A stretch of 64,000 nt of DNA from Escherichia phage EcS1. Below are positions 1,416 through 64,000 of the stretch, one piece after another; the first letter of the stretch is position 1; every line of letters starts with the position of its first letter. The DNA lies in sequence record NC_055721.1. The stretch is one strand, 5' to 3'. A program made the translations under genes and the position numbers. Below the pieces are notes generated by a model, which was given only the letters and a program-made list of their open reading frames with translations, had not been told where the DNA came from and made no database searches.

Positions 1416-1829
1416 TTAGTTAATAGCCTTACCATAATGTTTATACCACAAAGGCTTTTGAGTAATCTTTTCGTCAAGACGTTCCTGAGATAAACGAAGA
1501 GCACGTTGATTAGGAATATAATCATTACACCACTCGACAGGAATATCTGTTATGGGCTTAACAGTAGTATCAGTAATTTTGAAACCACGTTTTAAGCATT
1601 CATTGATGAGCTTAAACTGACGATTATGTAAGAACTTTAACTTGTTATAGAAGAATGTAACATGACCAGTCCCAAGCAAAAAGGTATCAGAGATTTTGAA
1701 ATCAGAAACCTTTTTACCAGCAGCAATATGCTTACGAACAGCACCAAACACACGAGGGAGCTCGCGATACTCCGCCATTAGATGTTGATCAGTTAATTCA
1801 GAAACAGGTGTTAAGTTAATACGTGTCAT
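1416..1829 (-). CDS. denV: endonuclease V, pyrimidine-dimer DNA glycosylase
   Basis: [34 protein letters not shown]... is near-identical in pattern to T4 DenV; start placed at the MTRINL Met, 4 codons inside the longest ORF. Confidence 0.85.
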
Positions 1830-1884
1830 GATGTCCTCCATTAGTTTAGGAAGACATCATACCACAGTACTATCTTGTTGTAAA

Positions 1885-2187
1885 CTACTTCTTAGAGTAA
1901 TCACTCATTAGTTTAACTATGTCACCAAGTTTCTTGTTGAACAGATAATCTACTTCTTTACCTGCTTTGTTAACAATCTGCCATTGGCCATCGCCTTTGT
2001 TACCGAAAGTGTAGTCGCCAACTTTAAATGAGTAGCCGCCTACTTTTTTAACAGGAGTTACTTCAAAGCCAAGTTTTTTAGCTTGGAAAGTTACACGACG
2101 CAGAGTGTCGTCCATTTCGCTTTCAGTTAGTGGTTGGGTATAAGTTTCAAGGTAAGATTCTAGTAAAGTCATTCGTATGCACCCCAA
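1885..2187 (-). CDS. hypothetical protein
   Basis: 100-aa ORF between denV and e; start uncertain (internal Met at MTLLESY). Confidence 0.4.
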
Positions 2188-2657
2188 GTGCCAGTTTTAA
2201 AAGTAGAGATAACACGCTTAGCGCGATTAGGTGTCTGATTATACCATCGGGATTTAGATAAATTAACTGCTGCTTCATCCCAACGTTTTTCTTTAAGCAT
2301 ACGCATAGAATTCGTAAATCCTGCGACGCCTGCAACACCCATTTGGAAGACCATATTAATCAGTGCAGCACGACGAACACCATCCAGAACATCATATACA
2401 GGCTTCAGAACTGAGTTGCCTAAGATGCCTCGAGTTGCCTTTTCAACATCTTTATTAAAGATGCTTTCAGCTTCGGCTTGACTGAGCTGACCGTTACAGT
2501 CGCGTCCAACAAGTTTATTAAGTTCAGTTTTAGCAATATCAAGAGATGGTTCTTTGGTCAAAAGATGACCGATACCAATTGTGTAATACCCTTCGGTATC
2601 TTTATAAATTTTAGAATCGTATCCTTCATCGATACGAAGCATTCCGAAAATATCCAT
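2169..2657 (-). CDS. e: T4-type lysozyme (endolysin)
   Basis: [35 protein letters not shown]...[15 protein letters not shown] matches T4 lysozyme along its whole length (162 aa). Confidence 0.9.
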
Positions 2658-2695
2658 AGAAACTCCTATACATTAATATAGGAGTATTTATTTAG

Positions 2696-3169
2696 TTACT
2701 TCCAGTTAGCTTCATGGATTTCCTTTCCGTAAAGCTTCTGCATTACATTGTAAAGAGATGGGCCCATTACGTAGTTCCACATACGAGGTTGGATAAAAGC
2801 AAATGCATCTAGTTCCGGGAAACTGACGCCGTCTTCACCAGTGTGTTGAGCTGTACAAACACAACCCTTGAAGTCCTCGACTTCGACAGCAAATGGATAG
2901 ACAAACAAATGAATATCTTTATTGGGCGCGTAGTCGTGTCGTCCTAGGTCCACTAGGGCTCCAGGATTGTACTTCTCGAAACTGGTTTCTTCTGTACATT
3001 CACGGACTGCAGCTTGAAGAACAGTTTCGCCTTCTTCAACATGTCCTTTAGGAATGTCCCAACGATGACCCTTGCCTGCTAGTCCCGAACCCGTAACGCG
3101 TCCCATGAATAAATGGTGTTCTTTTGTGAAGAACAAAATACCTGCTGATAATTCTTTTACTTTAGTCAT
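2696..3169 (-). CDS. nudE: Nudix hydrolase
   Basis: Nudix box GHVEEGETVLQAAVRECTEETS; sits next to e as in T4. Start placed at an internal Met; the longest ORF would begin at 3208. Confidence 0.7.
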   Translation of the reverse strand: MTKVKELSAGILFFTKEHHLFMGRVTGSGLAGKGHRWDIPKGHVEEGETVLQAAVRECTEETSFEKYNPGALVDLGRHDYAPNKDIHLFVYPFAVEVEDFKGCVCTAQHTGEDGVSFPELDAFAFIQPRMWNYVMGPSLYNVMQKLYGKEIHEANWK

Positions 3170-3401
3170 TAAAGTCGTCCCCGAGCCATGATAGGCTATA
3201 GATTTCACGAATCGTTTCTTCTACATCAGATTCTTCATATTCTGAATTTTCACTAACCGCTATAGTCCAATCAGCTATTGGTGAAAAATAGTCTAAATTT
3301 TCAGATAATTTAGAATGGATGGAATCTAATGATTGTGAATCTTCAAAAGAATACAGGTAAGAATCACCAGATTCAGATTTAATATAAACTGCTACAGCCA
3401 T
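3162..3401 (-). CDS. hypothetical acidic protein
   Basis: 79-aa ORF co-oriented and tightly packed with neighbours. Confidence 0.4.
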   Translation of the reverse strand: MAVAVYIKSESGDSYLYSFEDSQSLDSIHSKLSENLDYFSPIADWTIAVSENSEYEESDVEETIREIYSLSWLGDDFND

Positions 3402-7794: not shown

Positions 7795-8119
7795 TTTTGG
7801 TTCCTTTGAATATGAATTAGGTTTATTTTATATTTATCATATTCGTCCAGTGCGCACCGCTTGCTCAGATAGCCCGAAAGGGTCCCACCGAAGTAGAACC
7901 CTTTCAGAAGAATTGACAGCACTACCCACTTGCGGATAGCCTGCAAATGTTCATTTTATTATGCTCGTAGAGGCAAGTCTCACATAATAAAACATAGCGT
8001 CAGGAGGTGTCACTTTGCAGGTGATTAACAACTATGCTCATCCTCGGATAGAACATAGCAACGTAAACGTTCTCTTCTAGACTGACGTCTTATCGTAGGG
8101 TTGCAGCCCTAAACGAAAT

Positions 8120-8196
8120 TGGTGCTGAATGCAGGAATCGAACCCGCGACCTTCTCATTACAAGTGAGCTGCTCTACCTACTGAGCTAATTCAGCA
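8120..8196 (-). tRNA. tRNA-Thr (anticodon TGT)
   Basis: Cloverleaf read by hand; sequence closely resembles T4 tRNA-Thr; CCA encoded. Confidence 0.75.
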
Positions 8197-8199
8197 ATT

Positions 8200-8284
8200 T
8201 GGTGCATCGAGAGGGATTCGAACCCTCAATCCTCGCGGCGTGGCATTTTAAGTGCCATGTGTATACCAGTTCCACCATCGATGC
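8200..8284 (-). tRNA. tRNA-Leu (anticodon TAA)
   Basis: 85-nt class II tRNA with long variable arm; anticodon loop CTTAAAA; CCA encoded. Confidence 0.7.
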
Positions 8285-8288
8285 GAAT

Positions 8289-8363
8289 TGGTCGAGACAG
8301 TAGGGATCGAACCTACGACCTAGGACTTAGAAGGTCCTTGCTCTTCCGTCTGAGCTATGCCCC
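8289..8363 (-). tRNA. tRNA-Arg (anticodon TCT)
   Basis: Anticodon arm GGAC-CTTCTAA-GTCC, T-loop TTCGATC, CCA encoded. Confidence 0.7.
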
Positions 8364-8525
8364 GTCTTTGTATAAACGTTCTAAGTAAACATGCTCCATC
8401 GGTTTAACGATTTCGCCTTGTTTCAATAATTGTGTTTGAATAGGATTCAAATTATAAAATTTGATCACATCTCTGAGATCTTGTTCGCTATAATTAAAAG
8501 TTCCTACTTCTACTCCGATTTGCAT
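8355..8525 (-). CDS. hypothetical small protein (56 aa)
   Basis: Small ORF between tRNA genes, not in the supplied track (below its length cut-off); stop overlaps the tRNA-Arg 5' end. Confidence 0.25.
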   Translation of the reverse strand: MQIGVEVGTFNYSEQDLRDVIKFYNLNPIQTQLLKQGEIVKPMEHVYLERLYKDGA

Positions 8526-8537
8526 AAGTATCCTTTT

Positions 8538-8624
8538 TGGAGCTAGGAGTGAGATTCGAACTCACGAAAGCATAACGCTACTGGATTTGCAATCCAGCGC
8601 CTTTGACCACTCGGCAATCCTAGC
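8538..8624 (-). tRNA. class II-type tRNA with anticodon GCA (Cys) and U73 discriminator
   Basis: 87 nt; acceptor GCTAGGA/TCCTAGC, Ser/Tyr-like D-arm GCCGAGTGGTCAAAGGC, anticodon stem CTGGA/TCCAG with loop TTGCAAA, 15-nt variable arm, T-loop TTCGAAT. Confidence 0.5.
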
Positions 8625-8626
8625 AA

Positions 8627-8754
8627 ATGTTCAGGTGGGAGTCGAACCCACACGATTGAAGCCTCTCATCGGGTTACCTCTTACTCAGCTGGGTGCTTAA
8701 ACCAGCGTTTCAAACAGAGTCCGCCAACATGTCTACCGATTCCATCACTGAACA
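8627..8754 (-). ncRNA. tRNA-like stable RNA candidate (about 128 nt)
   Basis: Perfect 7-bp acceptor-like pairing (TGTTCAG/CTGAACA) next to a canonical T-arm (GTGGG-TTCGACT-CCCAC) and a Leu-like D region (GGAATCGGTAGAC), but too long for a tRNA and without a clean anticodon arm. Confidence 0.35.
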
Positions 8755-8758
8755 ATTT

Positions 8759-8983
8759 TTACATATCTACTTGACAAAACCAGTTCATTTCAAAATATTC
8801 ATCAAAATGTAATGCAGGTTCTACTTGACAATTTTCTTCTAATAAGACCAAATTTCTTCTAACAATAGGGTCTAATGACGTGATGGTCAAAGCACTATCA
8901 TGATAGTAAATCAGAACACGAAGCGAATCTGTATCAACTAAATACCGAACATTCATATCAGGATGTTTGTAGAGGTTAATCAT
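8759..8983 (-). CDS. hypothetical protein
   Basis: 74-aa ORF upstream of the tRNA block. Confidence 0.4.
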   Translation of the reverse strand: MINLYKHPDMNVRYLVDTDSLRVLIYYHDSALTITSLDPIVRRNLVLLEENCQVEPALHFDEYFEMNWFCQVDM

Positions 8984-8989
8984 AACATT

Positions 8990-9436
8990 TTATCCTTGAA
9001 GCATTTCACGAACACGATAAAGATTAGAACAGAATTCTTGTTCAGTTAGAACAGTTTCATTCTTTTTATTCTTACCCATGCTATGAGTTAATGTTGAGTT
9101 ACGCGTAGCTAGGAGTGCTCTCTTGAATCCTTCATTCAAAGCCAGAGAATCATATGCTCGCTGAATTAAAGACGTATAGGCTATACTTTGACGTAAAATA
9201 GGGACACCTTTCCAGTACAACGTTTGGGTGCGCCACCAGTTCTTTTTCTTACCTTTGAACTTAGCTTTCTTACCAACTAATGTACAGACATGCTCTTGCA
9301 TTTCTACTGAAGAAAACTTCAATGATTGCAAGAAACCTTCCATTGATGCACACTGTACTCCATCAATTTCGAAAGCATGAGGAGCAAAGTTACTTAATGC
9401 ACAACTTGGGTACATTGAACCTGAACCAATATCCAT
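8990..9436 (-). CDS. NADAR-domain protein (YbiA/DUF1768-like)
   Basis: LSNFAPHAFEIDGVQCASMEGFLQSLKF and FKRALLATRNSTLTHS match conserved NADAR blocks (compare E. coli YbiA FSNFAAWPIKVDGKTWPTSEHYFQAQKF and LRALLLATAPAKLVEHT). Confidence 0.65.
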   Translation of the reverse strand: MDIGSGSMYPSCALSNFAPHAFEIDGVQCASMEGFLQSLKFSSVEMQEHVCTLVGKKAKFKGKKKNWWRTQTLYWKGVPILRQSIAYTSLIQRAYDSLALNEGFKRALLATRNSTLTHSMGKNKKNETVLTEQEFCSNLYRVREMLQG

Positions 9437-9527
9437 TATCCATTATTCCTTTGATGATAATAACAGCGTTTACATCGATACCAACCGAAATAATCTTTGT
9501 AGATTATTCTATTGCAGTTGGGACATT

Positions 9528-9782
9528 TCATGCTGGTTCTACCTCAGTCATTGTTGTCCGTTTCAGAACCACACAACCTTCTATTTCAGGGTCTTTCTTA
9601 ACCAGAACTCGTCCAGTAGGCGAAATAAGGCCAGTAATATGATTCAGAGCTTTAGCAGCATCATTGAAGCCATCAGCTTGCATAATCGTTCCGAATGAGA
9701 ACCCTTGATAGTGATTACTAAACTCGTAATAAGCGTATTCTTCACGAATAGGGCAATAAATCACATAATCAACATTCAGCAT
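9528..9782 (-). CDS. hypothetical protein
   Basis: 84-aa ORF. Confidence 0.4.
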   Translation of the reverse strand: MLNVDYVIYCPIREEYAYYEFSNHYQGFSFGTIMQADGFNDAAKALNHITGLISPTGRVLVKKDPEIEGCVVLKRTTMTEVEPA

Positions 9783-10114
9783 AAGTCACCTACACATTGG
9801 AGAGCACGATGGTGTGACCATATTTCTAAAGTCTTTTCGTTGGCTTTATTAATTCGACGAAGGTCATTTAAATTACCTTTAACATATAACCCAAGTTCAC
9901 TTAACAAATGATCGATAGTGAAATAAGAAATATCTCGCAGTGGAGCATAACGGAACTTAATGAAGTGCCATTCATCAAACTCGTTTTTGGTAAACGCATA
10001 ATCAGCATGCATCATGAGTTCGCGAATCGTTTCACGCATCAAAAAGACATTACCGTGATAAGAATCATTTATAGCAACAATATGTGGACCTACACCTAGA
10101 TAGATACGAGACAT
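9776..10114 (-). CDS. hypothetical protein
   Basis: 112-aa ORF preceded by RBS GAGGAAA. Confidence 0.45.
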   Translation of the reverse strand: MSRIYLGVGPHIVAINDSYHGNVFLMRETIRELMMHADYAFTKNEFDEWHFIKFRYAPLRDISYFTIDHLLSELGLYVKGNLNDLRRINKANEKTLEIWSHHRALQCVGDLC

Positions 10115-10133
10115 AATATTTTCCTCAGTCAGT

Positions 10134-10304
10134 TTATTCTACATCATATTCAACTACAAGCACTTCTTCATAATCTTCAGGATTAAGAGTTTTAATGTAG
10201 TCTTCTGCTTTTTCTTTACTCGATAGAATCTTTAATGGCTTTGAATATTCATCATATCCATATTCACAGTTAAACTCTGACATAACAACTGCGTATACTA
10301 TCAT
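10134..10304 (-). CDS. hypothetical small acidic protein (56 aa)
   Basis: ORF below the track cut-off; the same RBS (GAGGAAAATATT-ATG) as the downstream gene. Confidence 0.35.
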   Translation of the reverse strand: MIVYAVVMSEFNCEYGYDEYSKPLKILSSKEKAEDYIKTLNPEDYEEVLVVEYDVE

Positions 10305-10324
10305 AATATTTTCCTCATTTGAAT

Positions 10325-10401
10325 TGGTGGCCCTTGTCGGAGTCTAACCGACCTTACACCAGTTATGAGCTGGGCACTTTCACACGAAAGTATAAAGGGC
10401 C
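10325..10401 (-). tRNA. tRNA-Met-like (anticodon CAT), non-canonical D and T loops
   Basis: 77 nt with perfect acceptor stem and CCA, anticodon loop CTCATAA; D-loop lacks GG and T-loop is TTAGACT. Confidence 0.4.
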
Positions 10402-10458
10402 ATTATTAAAATATTTTTACTTTAATAATGGCCCTCTCCGAAGAGAGGACAGAGGGTA

Positions 10459-10743
10459 TTACTTACACATGAACTTAGCAACTTCATCGAAGCTGTTCAA
10501 GATGTAATAAGACTTAGGCGCACTGTATTCAGTAGGTTTAATAGTAATACGTACACGACCATGCAAGTCTTCAACTAATCCAACAACAGCACTTGAACGA
10601 ACAACAGCACGAGCAGTTGTAGGAATCTGACCGGTAGTCAGAGCTTGAAGTTCGGTGTCAATAAGGATTACAATACGTTCAGACATTTTAATTTCCATTT
10701 GTTGTTTCGATGTAGTAATAATAACATGATTATTTTGAAGCAT
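10459..10743 (-). CDS. hypothetical protein
   Basis: 94-aa ORF; start uncertain (internal Met candidates). Confidence 0.4.
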   Translation of the reverse strand: MLQNNHVIITTSKQQMEIKMSERIVILIDTELQALTTGQIPTTARAVVRSSAVVGLVEDLHGRVRITIKPTEYSAPKSYYILNSFDEVAKFMCK

Positions 10744-10801
10744 AACCGTTCAGAGACTAAAAAGCCCAGTACAAGATTTCTCTTGCCCGGGCGTCATTAT
10801 T

Positions 10802-10876
10802 TGGAGCAGCATATCGGACTCGAACCGATGTCGACTGGGTGGAAGCCAGTAATATTAACCACTATACGAATGCTGC
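10802..10876 (-). tRNA. tRNA-Gly (anticodon TCC)
   Basis: Acceptor GCAGCAT/ATGCTGC, anticodon arm ACTGG-CTTCCAC-CCAGT, T-loop TTCGAGT, CCA encoded. Confidence 0.7.
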
Positions 10877-10877
10877 A

Positions 10878-10951
10878 TGGCAGGCCCTGTAGGAATCGAA
10901 CCCACGTCGCTGAGGTTGGAGCTCAGAATGATACCACTATACCAAGGACCC
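10878..10951 (-). tRNA. tRNA-Trp (anticodon CCA)
   Basis: Anticodon arm CTGAG-CTCCAAC-CTCAG, T-loop TTCGATT, CCA encoded. Confidence 0.65.
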
Positions 10952-11102
10952 GTTGATTGTACGGAACGCCTGGATTCGAACCAGGTTACAAAGCAGTTGA
11001 CGCTCCTTTGTATTTTGTAAGGCCATCATCTCGACCATATCCGAACGTTTCGTCAAAAACGCTACTCGGCTTATGGCAAAGACAAATCCTCGAACCGATA
11101 AT

Positions 11103-11177
11103 TGGTGGGAGCTGTTGGTAACGATCCAACCTCTCGAGCTCTTCAGGCAAGCGCTAATCCGTCTCAGCTAAACTCCC
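11103..11177 (-). tRNA. tRNA-Phe-like (anticodon GAA), weakened anticodon stem
   Basis: 75 nt, acceptor GGGAGTT/AGCTCCC plus ACCA; anticodon loop CTGAAGA; two mismatches in the anticodon stem and an atypical T-loop. Confidence 0.4.
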
Positions 11178-11262
11178 AGATCCACAAGAACTTTACAAGC
11201 ATTGCGCTTAACCTTTTCAGGAAGTTAGGGTACTATTTCTAGTCTGTGGTTATCCCTATTTT

Positions 11263-11338
11263 TGGTGGGAATAGCTGGATTTGAACCAGCGACCTATCGC
11301 TTATCGGGCGAGTGCTCTACCAACTGAGCTATATTCCC
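11263..11338 (-). tRNA. tRNA-Ile (anticodon GAT)
   Basis: Acceptor GGGAATA/TATTCCC, D-arm GCTC-AGTTGGTA-GAGC, anticodon loop CCGATAA (C33), T-loop TTCAAAT, CCA encoded. Confidence 0.6.
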
Positions 11339-11344
11339 ATAATT

Positions 11345-11421
11345 TGGTCTCCATATAAGGATTTGAACCTTAGACCTCCTGGCCCCAAACCAGGCGCTCT
11401 ACCAAACTGAGCTACACGGAG
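11345..11421 (-). tRNA. tRNA-Pro (anticodon TGG)
   Basis: Anticodon arm CCTGG-TTTGGGG-CCAGG, T-loop TTCAAAT, CCA encoded. Confidence 0.7.
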
Positions 11422-11422
11422 A

Positions 11423-11668
11423 TTAATTTATATCAAATATGGTGCCATCTTTCCACATCATTGCGAAAAGAGGTGAAACTTTTGTTAAACGGTGTGCAAC
11501 TTTAACTTGACGGCTAAAACCTTCAATTTGAGCACCATAACCATTTATATCTAATACAAGACCAATATGAACTTTGCCAATATCAGACATACCATTTGAA
11601 GGTAATCCAATCATGACATAATCGTTAACTTCGATTTGTTTACCATATTTGTCAAATAATATCTTCAT
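11423..11668 (-). CDS. hypothetical protein
   Basis: 81-aa ORF embedded in the tRNA cluster. Confidence 0.4.
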   Translation of the reverse strand: MKILFDKYGKQIEVNDYVMIGLPSNGMSDIGKVHIGLVLDINGYGAQIEGFSRQVKVAHRLTKVSPLFAMMWKDGTIFDIN

Positions 11669-11693
11669 AATTATTTATTCACCATATTTTAAT

Positions 11694-11787
11694 TGGAGGA
11701 AGCTGTGAGATTTGAACTCACGGAACCTGTCCCCAGGACCTCTAGTTTTCAAGACTAGTGCAATAAACCAGACTCTGCCAAGCTTCC
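11694..11787 (-). tRNA. tRNA-Ser (anticodon TGA)
   Basis: 94-nt class II tRNA; anticodon arm CTAGT-CTTGAAA-ACTAG, long variable arm, T-loop TTCAAAT, CCA encoded. Confidence 0.7.
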
Positions 11788-11791
11788 GAAT

Positions 11792-11867
11792 TGGGGTGAC
11801 CTGTGGAATTCGAATCCACGACTACGAGAATCACAATCTCGAGTTCTACCAACTGAACTAAGGCCAC
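11792..11867 (-). tRNA. tRNA-His (anticodon GTG)
   Basis: Anticodon arm CGAGA-TTGTGAT-TCTCG, T-loop TTCGAAT, CCA encoded. Confidence 0.7.
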
Positions 11868-11967
11868 ATCAATATTCACTCAGCCACTTCGTGCGGACCT
11901 GTCTCGATATTACGTGTAGTGGATTAGCTAGTTCACACCACTATATCGTCTAGAATGAATATTAATT

Positions 11968-12043
11968 TGGCTAGAGCGCTTGGATTCGAACCAAGGAATA
12001 CCAGAATCAAAATCTGGTGTCGTAACCGCTTGACTACGCTCTA
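11968..12043 (-). tRNA. tRNA-Gln (anticodon TTG)
   Basis: Perfect acceptor TAGAGCG/CGCTCTA, anticodon arm CCAGA-TTTTGAT-TCTGG, T-loop TTCGAAT, CCA encoded. Confidence 0.7.
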
Positions 12044-12045
12044 AT

Positions 12046-12121
12046 TGGAGGCGAGTGATGGAATCGAACCATCGCGTAAAGGGATATGAACCCTTTATTC
12101 TACCACTGAAGTTAACTCGCT
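12046..12121 (-). tRNA. tRNA-Met (anticodon CAT), initiator-like features
   Basis: Anticodon loop TTCATAT closed by three consecutive G-C pairs (GGG/CCC); 1-72 position is an A-C mismatch; T-loop TTCGATT; CCA encoded. Confidence 0.55.
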
Positions 12122-12248
12122 ATTGTCCGGGTTCTCGAAGTAAAAACAAGTAGCTTGATGTAGAACACATAAAGTGGGAACAACTCACTTCATCTCCTAG
12201 CATTATTGTATGGAGACTCAAACTCATCTTCAAGAACTGCTTCGTATT

Positions 12249-12325
12249 TGGCGGACGTGCTTGGACTCGAACCAAGGACCTATCGCTTAACAGGCGACCG
12301 CTCTAACCAACTGAGCTACACATCC
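12249..12325 (-). tRNA. tRNA-Asn (anticodon GTT)
   Basis: Anticodon loop CTGTTAA, T-loop TTCGAGT, CCA encoded. Confidence 0.7.
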
Positions 12326-12329
12326 AAAA

Positions 12330-12461
12330 TTTACTTTCAGGGTTACTCGAAGCTCTCAAACCTTCCGGAAAGTCGAATAAGCATCTCATCCTCTCAGAAT
12401 CCCGTGCACAGGAAAAATCTTTATTAGGAGGAGACTAAATCAATATAACCCTGAAAGTAAA
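12330..12461. repeat. perfect 16-bp inverted repeat flanking a 100-nt spacer
   Basis: TTTACTTTCAGGGTTA (12330-12345) and its exact reverse complement TAACCCTGAAAGTAAA (12446-12461); the spacer contains the palindrome TTCCGGAA. Confidence 0.6.
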
Positions 12462-12475
12462 CTTACTTTCGAATT

Positions 12476-12552
12476 TGGTGGGACATCATGGACTCGAACC
12501 ATGGACACCCGGATTAAAAGTCCGGTGCTCTAACCAACTGAGCTAATATCCC
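12476..12552 (-). tRNA. tRNA-Lys (anticodon TTT)
   Basis: Anticodon arm CCGGA-CTTTTAA-TCCGG, T-loop TTCGAGT, CCA encoded. Confidence 0.7.
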
Positions 12553-13060
12553 ATAGATATTTATCTATAAATCTCTTAGCTTGAGTATGACTTATATTTA
12601 AACTTTTACTAAACTTGGTTAATGCACCTCGTTTAGTAAAATCTATTAAATTATAAGCTTCAATTCTAGAAGCAATTTCTTCTTCAGACAAAACCAAAGC
12701 ATGGTTTTCTGAAATCTTTTTACGAGATTCTGTTGTATGTGACATACCAGTAAAACCAAGAGTAGGTTTTAGTCTACCATTAGCTTTAGCGTCTTGTGCA
12801 TTTTGTTTATTTGTCGCACAATAAATGTTTTCTAATGAATAAGGACCTATATCGCCTTTACGACACATGCAATAATCCAAACTTGCTTTACCACGTAAAT
12901 GATATTTACCTGTTGATTTCCACCAAGTAAACCACTCATCAAAAGTTAGATTAAATTCAATACCACGAGCTTTGGCATGAACTTTTTGCATACGGTACTT
13001 TTCATAATCTTCCATACAACTCTCACAAATTGGCAGTGCCGACGGGATTCGAACCCGCAT
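12530..13060 (-). CDS. putative HNH-type homing endonuclease with NUMOD-like and HTH-like C-terminal motifs
   Basis: CxxC plus Cys/His-rich N-terminal region (CESC...DYCMCRKGDIGPYSLENIYCATNKQN), NUMOD3-like GFTGMSHTTESRKKISENH, C-terminal HTH-like segment; both ORF ends overlap tRNA genes, so the true start is probably the internal Met at about 13015. Confidence 0.45.
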   Translation of the reverse strand: MRVRIPSALPICESCMEDYEKYRMQKVHAKARGIEFNLTFDEWFTWWKSTGKYHLRGKASLDYCMCRKGDIGPYSLENIYCATNKQNAQDAKANGRLKPTLGFTGMSHTTESRKKISENHALVLSEEEIASRIEAYNLIDFTKRGALTKFSKSLNISHTQAKRFIDKYLWDISSVG

Positions 13061-13105
13061 GGTCTCCCGTGACAGGGGAGTATATTACCAAGTCTACCAC
13101 GGCAC
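13030..13105 (-). tRNA. tRNA-Asp (anticodon GTC)
   Basis: Perfect acceptor AGTGCCG/CGGCACT, anticodon arm CTCCC-CTGTCAC-GGGAG, T-loop TTCGAAT, CCA encoded. Confidence 0.7.
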
Positions 13106-13111
13106 TATTGT

Positions 13112-13187
13112 TTGGTACTCTGTAGGAGAATTGAACTCCTCTTCCCAGGTTGAAAACCTGGTGTCCTAACCGATAGACGAACAGAGC
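13112..13187 (-). tRNA. tRNA-Glu (anticodon TTC)
   Basis: Anticodon arm CCAGG-TTTTCAA-CCTGG, T-loop TTCAATT, CCA encoded. Confidence 0.65.
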
Positions 13188-13195
13188 TAAGAATT

Positions 13196-13284
13196 TGGTG
13201 CACCGAGAAGGACTCGAACCTACGAAGCTCATTACAAGCAGGAGATTTACAGTCTCCACCCTTTGCCACTCGGGTCATCGATGC
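13196..13284 (-). tRNA. tRNA-Tyr (anticodon GTA)
   Basis: 89-nt class II tRNA; D region CCCGAGTGGCAAAGGG and anticodon arm GGAGA-CTGTAAA-TCTCC resemble E. coli tRNA-Tyr; CCA encoded. Confidence 0.65.
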
Positions 13285-14021: not shown

Positions 14022-14933
<912 letters not shown>

Positions 14934-14934
<1 letters not shown>

Positions 14935-15623
14935 TATATTACCTTTTTAATTTGTTCAAATAGTTGTTCTAAAGTACCAGTGTTCATTATAACACTGTCA
15001 CCAGGAGAAATTGGAAGACCTGCTTCAGTTATGTGCTGGTCTGTATTTTGATCGGTTTCAGGACGAACTACATGAATAATCGTAGCACCCATCGCCCTGA
15101 GCGAATCAATTTCGTGCACTTGACGGACATCAGGAATAACATAATAGTTATAACCTGAATAGAAGTTATCAAGATAGTTTTCTGTAAATAATTTAACCCA
15201 ATACATACGGTCGAGTTTATTAACAATCACATCAGTCCCAAGGGTCTGCATGAGACGACGGATTGTCCATTCCTCTACATTATTATTTAATACAGAAGAA
15301 ATCGCATCTTGGACTTTACTATCATATCGAGTGTATCTGAAATTGAAAACTTCATGAAGGACTTCAATACATTCATGCAGAAGAACACACACATCTTCAT
15401 TGTTTATAGGAAGGACCATTTCACGATCTATGCCAGTTCCTTCCCAATCACAATATAGTAACTGATGTAGTTCATTGATACCAGAGCGTTCCCAGGCACA
15501 CCTAAGAGCATACTTAATAGGCATAGCAAGTTGCCATTTCAAAGAACTAAAATTTTCAGTTATGTAATCAGCCGTAGTATCTTTACCACTACGTTTTTTA
15601 CCCACAATCACTAAGAGTTTCAT
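14934..15623 (-). CDS. 1: deoxynucleoside monophosphate kinase
   Basis: P-loop MKLLVIVGKKRSGKDT at the N-terminus; size and position match T4 gp1. Confidence 0.8.
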
Positions 15624-48036: not shown

Positions 48037-48075
48037 AAAAAAAAGGGAACCATATGGTTCCCTTTTTTTGTTTTT
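48035..48075. terminator. bidirectional intrinsic terminator between gene 24 and rnlB
   Basis: A10 - GGGAACCATATGGTTCCC palindrome - T7GT5; serves both convergent genes. Confidence 0.65.
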
Positions 48076-49078
48076 ATACTACTTCATGCCATTTTTCACG
48101 AATGGTAGCCATTACTATTTGCTGAAGTTCTTTCTTAACTAAGTTCGGTTGGTCAGCATCGATAAGTACGATACCTTCACGTTCTGCTTCGACAAAAATA
48201 TCTTGCATAGTAAGACCCATTACCTTACCGAAGTCTTTAGCTGTCACTTCACCAATATGACTCAAAACGTTGGACACACGGTTCCAGGTACTATATTCAG
48301 CTAATGTAGACAGTGCAACCTTATCTTGGTCGCTTAATACCGCAGCCGGCTTAATAGGCTTATCAGATTTAGCCTTTTCACTGAACTTAGAGTTCTTACA
48401 TTTAATAGCAACACGATTACCGTTAGCTAAAATCACTGGATAACAAGGCTTCAGAACATAGCCTTCTGCGATATTCTTTTCACCATGAGGCAAGAAACCA
48501 AAGTGAGCTATGTTAGCATATTCAATACCGTTGGCCACAGCAAGTTCATTATAATGATTAACTACAGAATCAAAGTCATTAACTAACTGAGATAATTCTT
48601 CGAAAGAGCCACGAGCTATTAGTGGTGCTACTTTAAAACCAAAGGTACAGCACATACGTTCAACCATGAAATCATCAGCATAAGTGCCTTCTTGGTCGTG
48701 TTCTGACTTAATTAAGATATCGAATACGTAGAAGTCTTTCTCACCGTAATCCATACCTTTTTGAATTCCACCACCTGCGAACTCGCCGAAAATTTGATAC
48801 GAAGATGCTGTACCACAGATAGAGTCTTGAAGAAACTTAATAGACTTATCATATTTCTTCATAATAATTTCATGAGCAAAGAAACTTTCACCGGGCAGAA
48901 TAGGTCCTGTCCGCTTACACGGAGTGACTGCGTCACGACTAATAATTAGAGAGAAGTTTGTACCATGAATCTTTTCACGTGCTACCCATACGCCAGTGTC
49001 ATTACCAGAGAAACGAATCTTCTCGATGAACTTACCGTTGTAATGATTCTCTAAAGAGGAGTACTTTTCAAATGTCAT
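48074..49078 (-). CDS. rnlB: RNA ligase 2
   Basis: 334 aa (T4 Rnl2 334); nucleotidyltransferase lysine motif KIHGTNFS. Confidence 0.85.
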
Positions 49079-62786: not shown

Positions 62787-64000
62787 CTACCCTTGAATAA
62801 AACGTTCTGGGATTTCTTGGATGTCTATTAAAGAAGCTAAAAGAGCTAGTCCTTCTTTGTTAGGATTAGGCTTTGAAGCCTTCACAAATGAGGTAAAGTT
62901 CAATGGTTCAGAAGTGTCCATAGCAACAAGTTCACCATTCTCAAACAATGCATCACCATCATACACTATAGTAGATTCTTCAATTTGTTCTGAAGTCATG
63001 ATTTCAGCTTGAATGAACTTTTGGTTACTATATTGAATACCGTCATTATAAGAAGCATCAGTTATAGAATTAATGGATACCATTGTTCCACGAGGTAAAA
63101 TGATTTCCATTTCAGAAGGCATATTACTCAAATCACCAGGGAAGATGACGTTAATTTTATGACCACCATCAATAGCCCAACCAACTGTAACTCTGATATC
63201 ATTTTCAAATTGGCCTGGCATATCTTTTGCTTCTTCGGAACCTGCATCAATGTTAAGTTCACTACGAACTTCTTCAGGAGCTAAACCAATAGCCGAATTT
63301 CCTTTCCAACCACCAAAGATGATAGGAGCTAATGAAGTAGAAACATAATTACGGAAATAGAATACACGGTTTTTAATCAATGATTCCCAAATAGGCTTAC
63401 GTATAGTTTGAGAACGCCATAACGTAATATTTTCTGGGATGCGGTCACCACGTTCAAAAGCAGCATCAATTCCATCAATAGCTTCTAAGACTTCATAGCG
63501 ATTCATTATATTGCTACTTTGCTCAGACCAACGGCCAAGCAAATAATCATTAATATCATGATAACCAGAACCAACATATTCTCTGATACCACGTTGCTCT
63601 TTTACTGGATATTGTAAAGGAGTACGAGAGCCAGCTATACCATTAATATTATCTGATACGTTTTTGGCATAGTTTTGAAGTGATTCTTTGATGAACTTAG
63701 TTCTTAACATAGTCCATTCAGCTTGAGCACGTTCTTTTGACATGCCATAATTATCATCCAATTGTTTATCTATAAAATCTTCTTTAAAATCTTCAGTCAT
63801 ATCCATGCATAATTTAGCATATTCTTGCATACTTTTAACAGAAGTTAAAGGAGCTTGACCTATATTTTTAATTAAAACTTCAGTCATTCGATCTGACATT
63901 CTAGCAATAGTATCTTCATCAATAAATCTTAAATTTTTTAATCTATAACCAATACCGTTGACGGCTCTTTCTGCTGATCTTGTTCTAGCAGCCTTAGAAG
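62787..64000 (-). CDS. alt: ADP-ribosyltransferase Alt, 5'-truncated by the window edge
   Basis: The frame is open from 62787 to the window end. Carries ART hallmarks: R-region YVGSGYHDINDYLLGR, STS motif (NYVSTSL) and E-x-E (SEMEIILPRG). Confidence 0.75.
   Translation of the reverse strand, partial: SKAARTRSAERAVNGIGYRLKNLRFIDEDTIARMSDRMTEVLIKNIGQAPLTSVKSMQEYAKLCMDMTEDFKEDFIDKQLDDNYGMSKERAQAEWTMLRTKFIKESLQNYAKNVSDNINGIAGSRTPLQYPVKEQRGIREYVGSGYHDINDYLLGRWSEQSSNIMNRYEVLEAIDGIDAAFERGDRIPENITLWRSQTIRKPIWESLIKNRVFYFRNYVSTSLAPIIFGGWKGNSAIGLAPEEVRSELNIDAGSEEAKDMPGQFENDIRVTVGWAIDGGHKINVIFPGDLSNMPSEMEIILPRGTMVSINSITDASYNDGIQYSNQKFIQAEIMTSEQIEESTIVYDGDALFENGELVAMDTSEPLNFTSFVKASKPNPNKEGLALLASLIDIQEIPERFIQG

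What the first reader, a model, noticed from the sequence alone, without database searches (positions are those of the whole stretch)
8120..13284. Expanded tRNA cluster (about 20 genes) plus RNA ligase: tRNA supply/repair module
T4 encodes 8 tRNAs; here hand-folding gives at least 19 tRNA genes on the minus strand (Thr, Leu, Arg, Met x2, Gly, Trp, Ile, Pro, Ser, His, Gln, Asn, Lys, Asp, Glu, Tyr, plus aberrant ones), interleaved with small ORFs and an endonuclease gene. The set includes isoacceptors known to be targeted by host anticodon nucleases (Lys-TTT by PrrC-type enzymes; Tyr, Thr and others by other systems). Together with rnlB at 48074..49078 this fits a strategy of replacing or repairing cleaved host tRNAs, beyond simple codon-usage compensation.
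Basis: partly seen in the sequence, partly recalled or inferred. Interest (0 to 1): 0.6.

Follow-up and report, generated by a model that had tools for sequence, protein, structure and literature searches.

The report
Ordinary T4-type phage tRNA gene cluster
A T4-like phage carries 19 transfer-RNA genes at the spot where T4 has eight; this is already described for its closest relatives and mostly fits the phage's own codon needs, and the proposed link to an RNA ligase gene 35 kb away does not hold.

Summary
On the minus strand of 8120-13284, ARAGORN finds 17 tRNAs, Rfam adds an 18th (Phe-GAA), and relaxed ARAGORN adds a 19th (an aberrant CAU tRNA). All 19 have intact acceptor stems and an encoded CCA. 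The cluster also holds a homolog of T4 rnaC and a conserved 128-nt tRNA-like RNA.

The window is a T4-like phage about 87% identical to Winklervirus. Its closest relative, LC53, has a published 18-tRNA cluster. The locus is syntenic with the T4 tRNA locus.

rnlB is real, but it sits after gene 24 exactly as in T4, and no Pnkp or Rnl1 lies in the window. The anticodon set largely follows phage-versus-host codon demand (p=2e-4, E. coli as proxy host). Anticodon loops of Lys, Tyr, Asn, Asp, His, Arg and Thr are identical to E. coli's. Replacement of nuclease-cleaved tRNAs is a published idea; these data neither exclude nor demonstrate it.

Two side observations are more interesting. The initiator-type tRNA has a phage-restricted UUCAUAU loop that changes the VapC cleavage site. 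The tRNA(GCA) has a long variable arm and U73.

The parts
13196..13284 (-). tRNA-Tyr(GUA), class II, 89 nt, A73, CCA encoded; first gene of the cluster in the direction of transcription
   Evidence: ARAGORN; Rfam 42.5 bits; 98% identical to LC53
13113..13187 (-). tRNA-Glu(UUC); anticodon loop UU[UUC]AA versus E. coli CU[UUC]AC; A73
13031..13106 (-). tRNA-Asp(GUC); anticodon loop identical to E. coli
12530..13015 (-). Trna.1-like ORF and likely homing-endonuclease relative (probable start at Met16 of the 176-aa ORF). Its stop codon lies inside tRNA-Lys. It is the positional analogue of T4 segB.
   Evidence: phrog_16521 E=9e-57 and weak HNH phrog_3118 E=1e-5; no Pfam or PDB hit; tblastn gives 87% to an unannotated LC53 ORF, 48% to T2L trna.1, and a C-terminal half matching SegB/SegD-like proteins
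12476..12552 (-). tRNA-Lys(UUU); anticodon loop identical to E. coli; positions 36-41 read UAAUCC versus E. coli UAAUCA
   Evidence: AriB site from PMC12409363
12326..12475 (-). 150-nt structured spacer between tRNA-Lys and tRNA-Asn, closed by a stem of about 20 bp
   Evidence: MFE -48.4 kcal/mol, z = -4.4 against shuffles; falls within an LC53 match of about 84% identity (12045-12464, which stops just short of the spacer's 5' end)
12249..12325 (-). tRNA-Asn(GUU); anticodon loop identical to E. coli; positions 36-41 read UAAGCG versus UAAUCC
12046..12121 (-). Initiator-type tRNA(CAU): A1xC72 mismatch, G2C3G4, G29-31:C39-41, U73, anticodon loop UU[CAU]AU
   Evidence: class analysis
11968..12043 (-). 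tRNA-Gln(UUG), U1:A72, G73
11792..11867 (-). tRNA-His(GUG), C73; the base at -1 in the gene is T, not G
11694..11787 (-). tRNA-Ser(UGA), 94 nt, U73
11423..11668 (-). Small ORF (81 aa) of unknown function, conserved in phages
   Evidence: phrog_3358 E=3e-19; LC53 has a CDS at the same place
11345..11421 (-). tRNA-Pro(UGG), C1:G72, A73; 91% identical to T4 tRNA-Pro
11263..11338 (-). tRNA-Ile(GAU) with C33 (loop CC[GAU]AA)
11103..11177 (-). tRNA-Phe(GAA) with T-loop AUCGUUA (A54/U58 in place of U54/A58) and G37
   Evidence: Rfam 36 bits; relaxed ARAGORN; 100% identical to LC53, where it is annotated tRNA-Phe-GAA; PG7 homolog has a canonical T-loop
10960..11098 (-). Homolog of T4 rnaC (species 1 stable RNA), tRNA-like
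   Evidence: blastn 85% over 139/140 nt, E=3e-39 against the T4 rnaC feature; 91% to LC53 and 83% to PG7
10878..10951 (-). tRNA-Trp(CCA)
10802..10876 (-). tRNA-Gly(UCC), U73
10325..10401 (-). Aberrant tRNA(CAU), probably the AUA reader (Ile2 type). Its acceptor GGCCCUU/AAGGGCC plus A73 resembles E. coli ileX. It has an extended D stem without GG and a T-loop UUAGACU.
   Evidence: Found only with relaxed ARAGORN and below the Rfam threshold; sequence comparison with ileX, T4 and LC53; three compensatory pair changes against the Pet-CM3-4 homolog
8759..10743 (-). Block of seven small ORFs inside the cluster: 10459-10743, 10134-10304 (DUF7336), 9776-10114, 9528-9782, 9436-9531, 8990-9436 (gp30.3 family) and 8759-8983
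   Evidence: ORF list; Pfam PF08010 E=1.5e-57 and PF24024; PHROG hits
8627..8754 (-). Conserved 128-nt tRNA-like RNA with a 7-bp acceptor-like stem, a Leu-like D arm, a T arm, and a long multi-helix domain in place of the anticodon arm; unannotated in relatives
   Evidence: Relaxed ARAGORN; homologs in Winkler-, Roskilde- and Jiaodavirus; RNAalifold gives 32 pairs, 12 with compensatory changes
8538..8624 (-). tRNA(GCA), 87 nt, 7/5 cloverleaf with a 15-nt variable arm, U73, CCA encoded; called Cys from the anticodon
   Evidence: (59 bits); relatives
8355..8525 (-). Small ORF (56 aa) with no family match; overlaps the 5' end of tRNA-Arg by 10 nt
8289..8364 (-). tRNA-Arg(UCU)
8200..8284 (-). tRNA-Leu(UAA), class II
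8120..8195 (-). tRNA-Thr(UGU), last gene of the cluster; positions 36-41 read UAAUGA versus E. coli UAAUCA
48074..49078 (-). rnlB (RNA ligase 2), listed only because the finding invokes it; not part of the cluster
   Evidence: Pfam RNA_ligase + T4_Rnl2_C; flanked by gp24 and hoc/uvsW, as in T4

Best explanation
This is the conserved T4-type tRNA locus in the expanded form typical of Winklervirus and Karamvirus phages. It is a co-oriented array of 19 tRNA genes, an rnaC homolog and a second tRNA-like RNA, interrupted by small ORFs and a Seg/Trna.1-type endonuclease-like gene.

Inferred by analogy with T4, not shown here: the array is transcribed as long precursors and cut to size by host tRNA-processing enzymes.

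Its main effect is to re-tune the infected cell's tRNA pool to the demand of a 38% G+C genome. It also adds a copy of every family that has a single isoacceptor. Eighteen of twenty amino acids are therefore covered, with Ala and Val missing.

Buffering against tRNA-cleaving defences is a plausible second benefit for some members. rnlB is not part of the module.
For: Cluster reality.

Synteny with the T4 tRNA locus: denV, e and nudE lie on one side; 57B, 57A and genes 1 and 3 on the other; an rnaC homolog lies inside.

Relatives: LC53 has the same genes in the same order. Its 18-tRNA cluster is published with a codon-compensation analysis (PMC10132071).

Demand test: 18,349 phage codons were compared with 14,976 E. 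coli codons. The nine top-ranked tRNA species by phage/host usage ratio include all eight A-ending readers the phage encodes. Encoded versus non-encoded medians are 1.54 and 0.78 (Mann-Whitney p=2.4e-4). Within families with several isoacceptors the medians are 2.36 and 0.78 (p=6e-5). Tyr, Lys, Asn, Phe and Asp match amino acids enriched 1.3-1.7-fold in the phage.

Functional look of the genes: acceptor stems, CCA ends and discriminator bases, and compensatory changes in the aberrant members.
Against: The host is unknown, and E. coli (39 genes from one region) is only a proxy. The E. coli tRNA-species table used comes from my own knowledge.

His (0.68), Cys (0.82), Met (0.90) and Glu (0.98) are encoded although the phage uses their codons less than the proxy host.

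The most highly expressed genes (gp23, 18, 19, 22) avoid AGA, AUA, ACA, UUA and GGA. The phage tRNAs therefore do not serve the bulk of capsid and tail synthesis.

Published experiments show that phage tRNAs can be decisive against PARIS, retron-Eco7 and PrrC. Demand and defence are confounded for Lys, Asn, Thr and Tyr.

Expression, processing and charging were not tested.
Confidence: 0.6

Rival explanations
1. Counter-defence is the main selected function. The phage tRNAs replace host tRNAs destroyed by anticodon or anticodon-stem nucleases (PrrC, PARIS AriB, retron-Eco7 PtuAB, VapC, colicin-like enzymes), either by sheer supply or because their sequences escape cleavage.
For: All published targets are represented: Lys-UUU, Thr-UGU, Asn-GUU, Tyr-GUA and the initiator tRNA.

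tRNA-Lys carries C41, one of the two T5 substitutions that impair AriB cleavage.

The initiator-type tRNA has U38 at the enteric VapC cleavage bond A38|C39. Its loop variant is found in 102 viral contigs but only 13 contigs of 100,044 species genomes.

His, Cys, Met and Glu are not explained by demand.

A bona fide anti-defence gene, Acb1, lies 950 bp upstream of the cluster.
Against: 11 of 19 anticodon loops are identical to E. coli's, including every PrrC, colicin E5, colicin D and PtuAB target.

Differences at AriB positions 39-41 equal the background. U39, whose change abolishes cleavage, is retained in Lys and Thr.

The anticodon choice in multi-isoacceptor families is exactly what demand predicts.

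Nothing can be tested functionally here.
Confidence: 0.3
2. Translational autonomy. The near-complete set (18 amino acids, all ten single-isoacceptor families) keeps translation going as the host tRNA pool decays after host shut-off and genome degradation, independent of any dedicated defence system (the idea of Yang et al. 2021, as cited in PMC10264068).
For: Coverage pattern: 10 of 10 single-isoacceptor families, including those with a usage ratio below 1. An initiator-type tRNA is included. All genes encode CCA.
Against: Ala and Val are absent, as are the CUN, CGN and AGY readers, so the set cannot translate on its own. No data exist on tRNA turnover in this system.
Confidence: 0.25
3. The tRNA cluster and rnlB form one supply-and-repair system for cleaved tRNAs.
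For: Both are present in the window. One paper loosely lists rnl1 and rnl2 as tRNA-Lys ligases.
Against: rnlB is 35 kb away, in the same place as in T4 between gene 24 and hoc. T4 has it with only 8 tRNAs. The demonstrated repair enzymes are Pnk and Rnl1, and neither is in the window. An in vivo tRNA-repair role for Rnl2 is not established (own knowledge).
Confidence: 0.05
4. Largely neutral accretion. The locus is a hot spot where homing endonucleases and recombination shuffle tRNA genes between T4-like phages, and many members persist without strong selection.
For: A Trna.1/Seg-like ORF lies inside the cluster. The content is mosaic: tRNA(GCA) and the aberrant CAU tRNA match Karamvirus phages, while the flanks match Winklervirus, and X20 has a Leu gene at the Cys position. 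Only 65% of the region aligns to the best relative.
Against: Structure-preserving compensatory changes occur in the odd members. Acceptor stems are intact and identity bases conserved in all 19. The anticodon choice is non-random.
Confidence: 0.1

Closest known systems
Phage T4 tRNA gene cluster (8 tRNAs, rnaC, rnaD, segB)
   Same: Same genomic position and strand relative to e/nudE and 57B/57A/gene 1. All eight T4 anticodons are present (for Ile-CAU, counting the aberrant CAU tRNA as its counterpart). The rnaC homolog is 85% identical. An endonuclease-type ORF lies inside the cluster.
   Different: There are 19 tRNAs rather than 8. No rnaD homolog is detectable; a different 128-nt tRNA-like RNA is present instead. 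The ORF is Trna.1-like (as in T2L), not GIY-YIG SegB. All genes encode CCA.
Serratia phage LC53 / Winklervirus 18-tRNA cluster (PMC10132071)
   Same: Same gene order. Lys, Asp, Glu and Phe are 100% identical, and Tyr and Asn 97-98%. The initiator-type tRNA, the C33 Ile tRNA, rnaC and the tRNA-like RNA are shared.
   Different: The window adds the long-arm tRNA(GCA) and an extra ORF next to tRNA-Arg. Its Ile2-type tRNA is the aberrant Karamvirus-like form rather than LC53's canonical one (64% identity). Gln, Gly and His are only 62-78% identical. Overall identity is about 87%, so this is a different species.
Phage T5 tRNA-rich region acting against PARIS, retron-Eco7 and PrrC (PMC11464382, PMC12409363, PMC11555353)
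   Same: Encodes Lys-UUU, Thr-UGU, Asn-GUU and Tyr-GUA. tRNA-Lys shares the A41C change.
   Different: It lacks the decisive U39A change. No experimental evidence exists for this phage. It belongs to an unrelated phage family.
T4 Pnkp-Rnl1 tRNA repair pathway against PrrC
   Same: Same phage lineage. The tRNA-Lys loop is identical to the host's, so repair or supply would be needed against PrrC.
   Different: Neither gene is in the window. Only Rnl2 is present, at its usual T4 position.
selC* tRNACys and allo-tRNAs (Mukai et al. 2016, PMC5389517)
   Same: The window's tRNA(GCA) shares with selC* tRNACys a long variable arm, U73 and a GCA anticodon.
   Different: It has an ordinary 7/5 acceptor/T arrangement and D arm, not 8/4 or 9/3. 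It is phage-borne, and its scaffold resembles tRNA-Tyr.

Membership tests
T4-type (Tevenvirinae) tRNA locus | Array of co-oriented tRNA genes that score as genuine tRNAs | tested here: met
   17 by default ARAGORN, 18 at or above the Rfam gathering score, 19 with relaxed ARAGORN; acceptor stems, CCA ends and discriminators intact
T4-type (Tevenvirinae) tRNA locus | Position between the e/nudE early region and 57B-57A-gene 1-gene 3 | tested here: met
   Pfam hits: Pyr_excise, lysozyme and NUDIX at 1416-3208; Acb1 (=57B) at 14231-14686; dNMP kinase at 14934-15623, compared with the T4 annotation
T4-type (Tevenvirinae) tRNA locus | Stable RNAs rnaC and rnaD encoded in the cluster | tested here: inconclusive
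   rnaC homolog found (85% identity, E=3e-39). rnaD has no blastn match. A different conserved tRNA-like RNA is present.
T4-type (Tevenvirinae) tRNA locus | Homing-endonuclease-type ORF within the cluster (segB in T4, trna.1 in T2L) | tested here: met
   tblastn: 48% to T2L trna.1, C-terminal half matches SegB/SegD-like proteins. The catalytic domain is not identified.
Codon/amino-acid compensation tRNA set (Bailly-Bechet type) | Encoded tRNAs read codons used more by the phage than by the host | tested here: met
   Median usage ratio 1.54 vs 0.78, p=2.4e-4; multi-isoacceptor families p=6e-5. Caveat: E. coli is a proxy host. The same conclusion is published for LC53 with its real host.
Anti-defence phage tRNAs (T5 type) | Encodes the isoacceptors that the nuclease destroys | tested here: met
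   Lys-UUU, Thr-UGU, Asn-GUU, Tyr-GUA and an initiator-type tRNA are present (targets)
Anti-defence phage tRNAs (T5 type) | Sequence changes at the nuclease recognition or cleavage site relative to host tRNA | tested here: inconclusive
   Loops of the PrrC, PtuAB and colicin targets are identical to E. coli's. At the AriB site, Lys has C41 but keeps U39, Thr has G40, and Asn has G39/G41. This is no more change than the background (1.21 per tRNA). Only the initiator-type tRNA shows a class-wide change (U38) at a known cleavage bond.
Anti-defence phage tRNAs (T5 type) | Rescue of infection in cells carrying the defence system | not testable with these tools
   Needs plating assays
T4 tRNA repair system (Pnkp + Rnl1) | Polynucleotide kinase-phosphatase and RNA ligase 1 genes | tested here: not met
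   In the window, the only RNA-ligase-family hit among the ORFs scanned is Rnl2. The untested ORFs lie in the structural-gene block. The rest of the 175-kb genome was not examined.
Bacterial initiator tRNA (applied to 12046-12121) | 1:72 mismatch, three G:C pairs at 29-31:39-41, CAU anticodon (features recalled from the literature) | tested here: met
   A1xC72, GGG/CCC and CAU. LC53 has U1xC72. Across the class, 50 of 63 have a mismatch and 51 of 63 have G2C3G4. Deviations: U73, U32, U38.
tRNA-Cys (applied to 8538-8624) | U73 and GCA anticodon (major CysRS identity elements per PMC5389517); class I architecture with a short variable loop | tested here: inconclusive
   U73 and GCA are met. The architecture is not: it has a 15-nt variable arm. 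Whether it is charged with Cys or Ser cannot be decided in silico.

The most novel reading that the evidence does not exclude
Some members of the cluster are not mere extra copies. They may be structurally remodelled, phage-specific tRNA types built to work when host counterparts are attacked or unavailable.

The first is an initiator tRNA class with the loop UUCAUAU, found in 102 viral contigs against 13 contigs in 100,044 species genomes. It replaces A38 at the VapC cleavage bond.

The second is a long-variable-arm U73 tRNA(GCA), with 24 distinct versions in viral contigs. It appears to be a class II scaffold recruited to read Cys codons.

Neither was found described in the searchable literature.
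Probability: 0.3. Interest if true: 0.65.

Novelty: new member of a known kind. Interest (0 to 1): 0.3.

Why it matters
The cluster itself adds little. Large tRNA arrays in T4-like phages, and both the codon-compensation and anti-nuclease explanations, are already in the literature.

The value of this check is negative and clarifying. The anticodon choice is what demand predicts. rnlB is unrelated. The main nuclease targets show no escape signature.

If the side observations hold, they would matter more. A phage-restricted initiator tRNA altered at the VapC site would be a clean, testable case of tRNA-level counter-defence. A class II tRNA reading Cys codons would raise a question about its aminoacylation identity. 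These two are the leads I would follow up.

Tried and rejected
(1) I looked for T4 rnaD and for the T4 e.8-rnaC spacer in the window by blastn. There was no match. rnaC did match.

(2) I considered 57B, next to the cluster, as a 2H-type RNA repair enzyme. Pfam identifies it as the anti-CBASS nuclease Acb1, so it was rejected as tRNA repair.

(3) I tested whether the window's tRNA(GCA) is homologous to the tRNA-Leu(UAA) at the same position in phage X20. The alignment shows only generic similarity.

(4) I tried to assign a catalytic family to the ORF at 12530-13015. Pfam and PDB sequence searches were empty, and only a weak HNH PHROG match appeared.

(5) Promoter and terminator consensus scans gave no more sites than shuffles, so they say nothing about transcription units.

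(6) Early-versus-late codon comparison gave only small differences.

(7) Literature searches for a long-arm phage tRNA-Cys and for a phage-specific initiator loop found no description. Absence from this library does not prove novelty.

(8) The weak 'tRNA-Phe(AAA)' call at 10959-11053 from relaxed ARAGORN is part of rnaC, not a tRNA.

Full report
**What is there**

ARAGORN finds 17 tRNA genes in the window. All lie on the minus strand between 8120 and 13284. Rfam's tRNA model scores the same 17 at 42-73 bits, against a gathering score of 29. It adds an 18th at 11106-11177 with 36 bits. This gene has a GAA anticodon and an unusual T-loop.

With relaxed thresholds ARAGORN also reports a second CAU tRNA at 10325-10400. 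All 19 have fully paired acceptor stems, apart from a 1:72 mismatch in one CAU tRNA. All encode CCA. [quoted passage not shown]

The two genes that fail default thresholds are not decayed copies. The CAU gene differs from its homolog in Cronobacter phage Pet-CM3-4 by three double, pair-preserving changes, while keeping its odd D arm and its UUAGACU T-loop. The Phe gene is 100% identical in phage LC53. Its A54/U58 T-loop is the mirror of the canonical U54/A58 seen in the PG7 homolog.

**Other parts of the cluster**

A segment at 10960-11098 is 85% identical over 139 nt to T4 rnaC, the 'species 1' stable RNA.

A 128-nt element at 8627-8754 has a 7-bp acceptor-like stem, a Leu-like D arm and a T arm. 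It is conserved in seven phages of three or four genera. Its consensus fold has 32 pairs, and 12 of them carry compensatory changes.

There are about ten small ORFs. One of them, at 12530-13015, ends inside tRNA-Lys. It is 87% identical to an unannotated ORF in LC53 and 48% to T2L trna.1. Its C-terminal half matches SegB/SegD-like proteins.

**Where the window comes from**

The window is 100% identical to IMG/VR contig UViG_2974737508_000001, which is 175,437 bp long. It is about 87% identical to Winklervirus phages (LC53, CHI14, X20, Virsaitis27, Kc304), both in the head genes and in the cluster.

Gene content follows the T4 map. The order is denV, e and nudE; then the tRNA cluster; then 57B (Acb1), 57A and genes 1 and 3; then genes 23 and 24, rnlB, hoc, uvsW and uvsY; then the baseplate genes and alt (compared).

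LC53's 18-tRNA cluster is published, and its authors interpret it as GC/codon compensation (PMC10132071). The window keeps the LC53 order. It adds a tRNA(GCA) of the kind found in Karamvirus phages. It also carries a Karamvirus-like version of the aberrant CAU tRNA.

**Identity of the two CAU tRNAs**

The gene at 12046-12121 has an A1xC72 mismatch, G2C3G4, and three G:C pairs next to the anticodon loop. I recall these as the hallmarks of bacterial initiator tRNA. The LC53 homolog keeps the mismatch with different bases (U1xC72).

The gene at 10325-10401 has the acceptor stem GGCCCUU/AAGGGCC and A73. This is close to E. coli ileX (GGCCCCU) and to the T4 and LC53 AUA readers. I therefore read it as an Ile2-type tRNA. 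This is an inference, and tRNAscan isotype models were not available.

**Testing the interpretation: rnlB**

The ORF at 48074-49078 is a genuine Rnl2 (Pfam RNA_ligase + T4_Rnl2_C). It lies 35 kb from the cluster, directly after gene 24 and before hoc and uvsW. That is exactly its place in T4, which has only eight tRNAs.

The documented answer to PrrC is Pnk plus Rnl1 (text quoted). Neither is among the window's ORFs. The 'supply plus repair module' is therefore not supported.

**Testing the interpretation: codon demand**

I compared 66 phage ORFs (18,349 codons) with 39 E. coli K-12 genes (14,976 codons). E. coli serves as a proxy because the host is unknown. I grouped codons by E. coli tRNA species, using a table from my own knowledge.

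- The encoded species have a median phage/host usage ratio of 1.54. The non-encoded species have 0.78 (Mann-Whitney p=2.4e-4).
- In families with several isoacceptors, the phage carries the one with the largest shift. These are Arg-UCU 5.6, Thr-UGU 4.2, Ser-UGA 3.8, Ile2 3.3, Leu-UAA 2.4, Pro-UGG 2.1, Gly-UCC 1.9 and Gln-UUG 1.9 (p=6e-5).
- Tyr, Lys, Asn, Phe and Asp match amino acids enriched 1.3-1.7-fold in the phage.
- The phage encodes all ten single-isoacceptor families and nothing for Ala or Val.
- His (0.68), Cys (0.82), Met (0.90) and Glu (0.98) are not explained by demand.
- The most highly expressed structural genes avoid the rare A-ending codons.

**Testing the interpretation: escape from nucleases**

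Published work shows three relevant things. PARIS AriB cuts E. coli tRNA-Lys(UUU), Thr(UGU) and Asn(GUU) between positions 40 and 41, and T5 tRNA-Lys escapes through U39A and A41C (PMC12409363). Retron-Eco7 PtuAB degrades tRNA-Tyr and is overcome by T5 tRNA-Tyr supply. A PrrC homolog is overcome by phage tRNA-Lys (PMC11555353).

In the window, 11 of 19 anticodon loops equal E. coli's. These include Lys, Tyr, Asn, Asp, His, Arg and Thr. At positions 36-41 the window's Lys reads UAAUCC, so it has C41 but retains U39. Thr reads UAAUGA and Asn reads UAAGCG. The number of changes at positions 39-41 in these three (1, 1, 2) equals the background over all 19 tRNAs (mean 1.21).

There is thus no target-specific signature. 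Supply alone could still work, as in the T5 and PrrC170 experiments. The counter-defence reading is therefore neither shown nor excluded.

**Two side observations that do point towards remodelled phage tRNAs**

*The initiator-type tRNA.* It has the loop UU[CAU]AU, where E. coli tRNA-fMet has CU[CAU]AA.

- The pattern GGGTTCATATCCC...GGTTCGA occurs in 102 IMG/VR contigs, giving 70 distinct sequences.
- Of 63 sequences that could be parsed, 50 have a 1:72 mismatch and 51 have G2C3G4.
- The same pattern occurs in only 13 contigs of 100,044 species genomes. Twelve of those are MAG contigs, and five carry 9-32 tRNAs, which looks like phage.
- Enteric VapC cuts tRNA-fMet between A38 and C39 (PMC4105405), and the phage class has U38.
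- The baseline for the canonical loop in genomes could not be scanned.

*The tRNA(GCA).* It is 87 nt long, with a normal 7/5 acceptor/T arrangement, a 15-nt variable arm and U73. Its D arm and variable arm resemble tRNA-Tyr.

- A pattern scan found 24 distinct long-arm tRNA(GCA) genes in viral contigs. In every parsed case the discriminator is U73, and the variable-arm stems differ in sequence.
- Mukai et al. note that a long arm with G73 or U73 suits SerRS, and that U73 with GCA suits CysRS. The amino acid it carries therefore cannot be decided here.

**Verdict**

It is the ordinary, expanded T4-type tRNA locus of a new Winklervirus-like species, and so a new member of a known kind.

The most likely working principle is adjustment of the tRNA pool to the phage's AT-rich demand. 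Protection against tRNA-targeting defences is a plausible secondary benefit.

The rnlB link should be dropped.

Noticed in passing
window 12046-12121 (-); loci L176-L277 and L397-L409: The 'Met' tRNA is initiator-type (1:72 mismatch, G2C3G4, GGG/CCC). It belongs to a class with the loop UUCAUAU, found in 102 viral contigs but only 13 contigs of 100,044 species genomes. Position 38, next to the enteric VapC cleavage bond, is U instead of A.
   Followed up: partly
window 8538-8624 (-); loci L017-L049: The tRNA(GCA) has a 15-nt variable arm and U73 on a Tyr-like class II scaffold. 24 distinct long-arm tRNA(GCA)/U73 genes occur in viral contigs. Charging with Cys or Ser is undecided.
   Followed up: partly
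window 8627-8754 (-): An unannotated 128-nt tRNA-like RNA with an acceptor-like stem, a Leu-like D arm, a T arm and a long multi-helix middle. It is conserved in Winkler-, Roskilde- and Jiaodavirus, with 12 of 32 pairs showing compensatory changes.
   Followed up: partly
window 10960-11098 (-): Homolog of T4 rnaC (species 1 RNA, function unknown), 85% identical to T4. It sits between tRNA-Phe and tRNA-Trp rather than at the end of the cluster. No rnaD homolog was found.
   Followed up: yes
window 10325-10401 (-): An Ile2-type tRNA(CAU) with an extended D stem lacking GG and a T-loop UUAGACU (A56). Both features are conserved with compensatory stem changes in Cronobacter phage Pet-CM3-4.
   Followed up: partly
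window 11103-11177 (-): tRNA-Phe(GAA) has T-loop AUCGUUA, an A54/U58 swap of the usual U54/A58 pair, and G37. The same loop appears in an unrelated viral contig (L047), while PG7 has the canonical loop.
   Followed up: partly
window 11263-11338 (-): tRNA-Ile(GAU) has C33 instead of the near-universal U33. The same is true in LC53.
   Followed up: no
window 11792-11868 (-): The tRNA-His gene has T at position -1, so no G-1 is encoded, although C73 is kept. This is conserved in PG7 and LC53. G-1 is the main HisRS identity element in E. coli (own knowledge).
   Followed up: no
window 14231-14686 (-): The gp57B homolog is an Acb1 anti-CBASS nuclease (Pfam PF23474, E=3.5e-58). It is a proven counter-defence gene lying 950 bp upstream of the tRNA cluster, as in T4.
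   Followed up: yes
window 12326-12475 (-) and 7795-8119 (-): Two non-coding stretches fold far better than shuffles (z = -4.4 and -4.2). The first is the Lys-Asn spacer, closed by a stem of about 20 bp. The second is the 325 nt downstream of tRNA-Thr, which contains a 16-bp hairpin.
   Followed up: partly
window 12530-13060 (-): The Trna.1/Seg-like ORF overlaps both neighbours. Its longest reading starts inside tRNA-Asp, and its stop codon lies in the D arm of tRNA-Lys. The homologous ORF in LC53 is not annotated.
   Followed up: partly
window 8990-9436 (-): A gp30.3-family protein (PF08010, E=1.5e-57) is encoded inside the tRNA cluster. In T4, gene 30.3 lies elsewhere in the genome.
   Followed up: no
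window 62787-63899 (-): An Alt-like ADP-ribosyltransferase (PF03496, E=1e-25) lies at the right edge of the window.
   Followed up: no
window 13196-13284 and 8200-8284 (-): tRNA-Tyr and tRNA-Leu share the same 5' acceptor strand, GCAUCGA.
   Followed up: no
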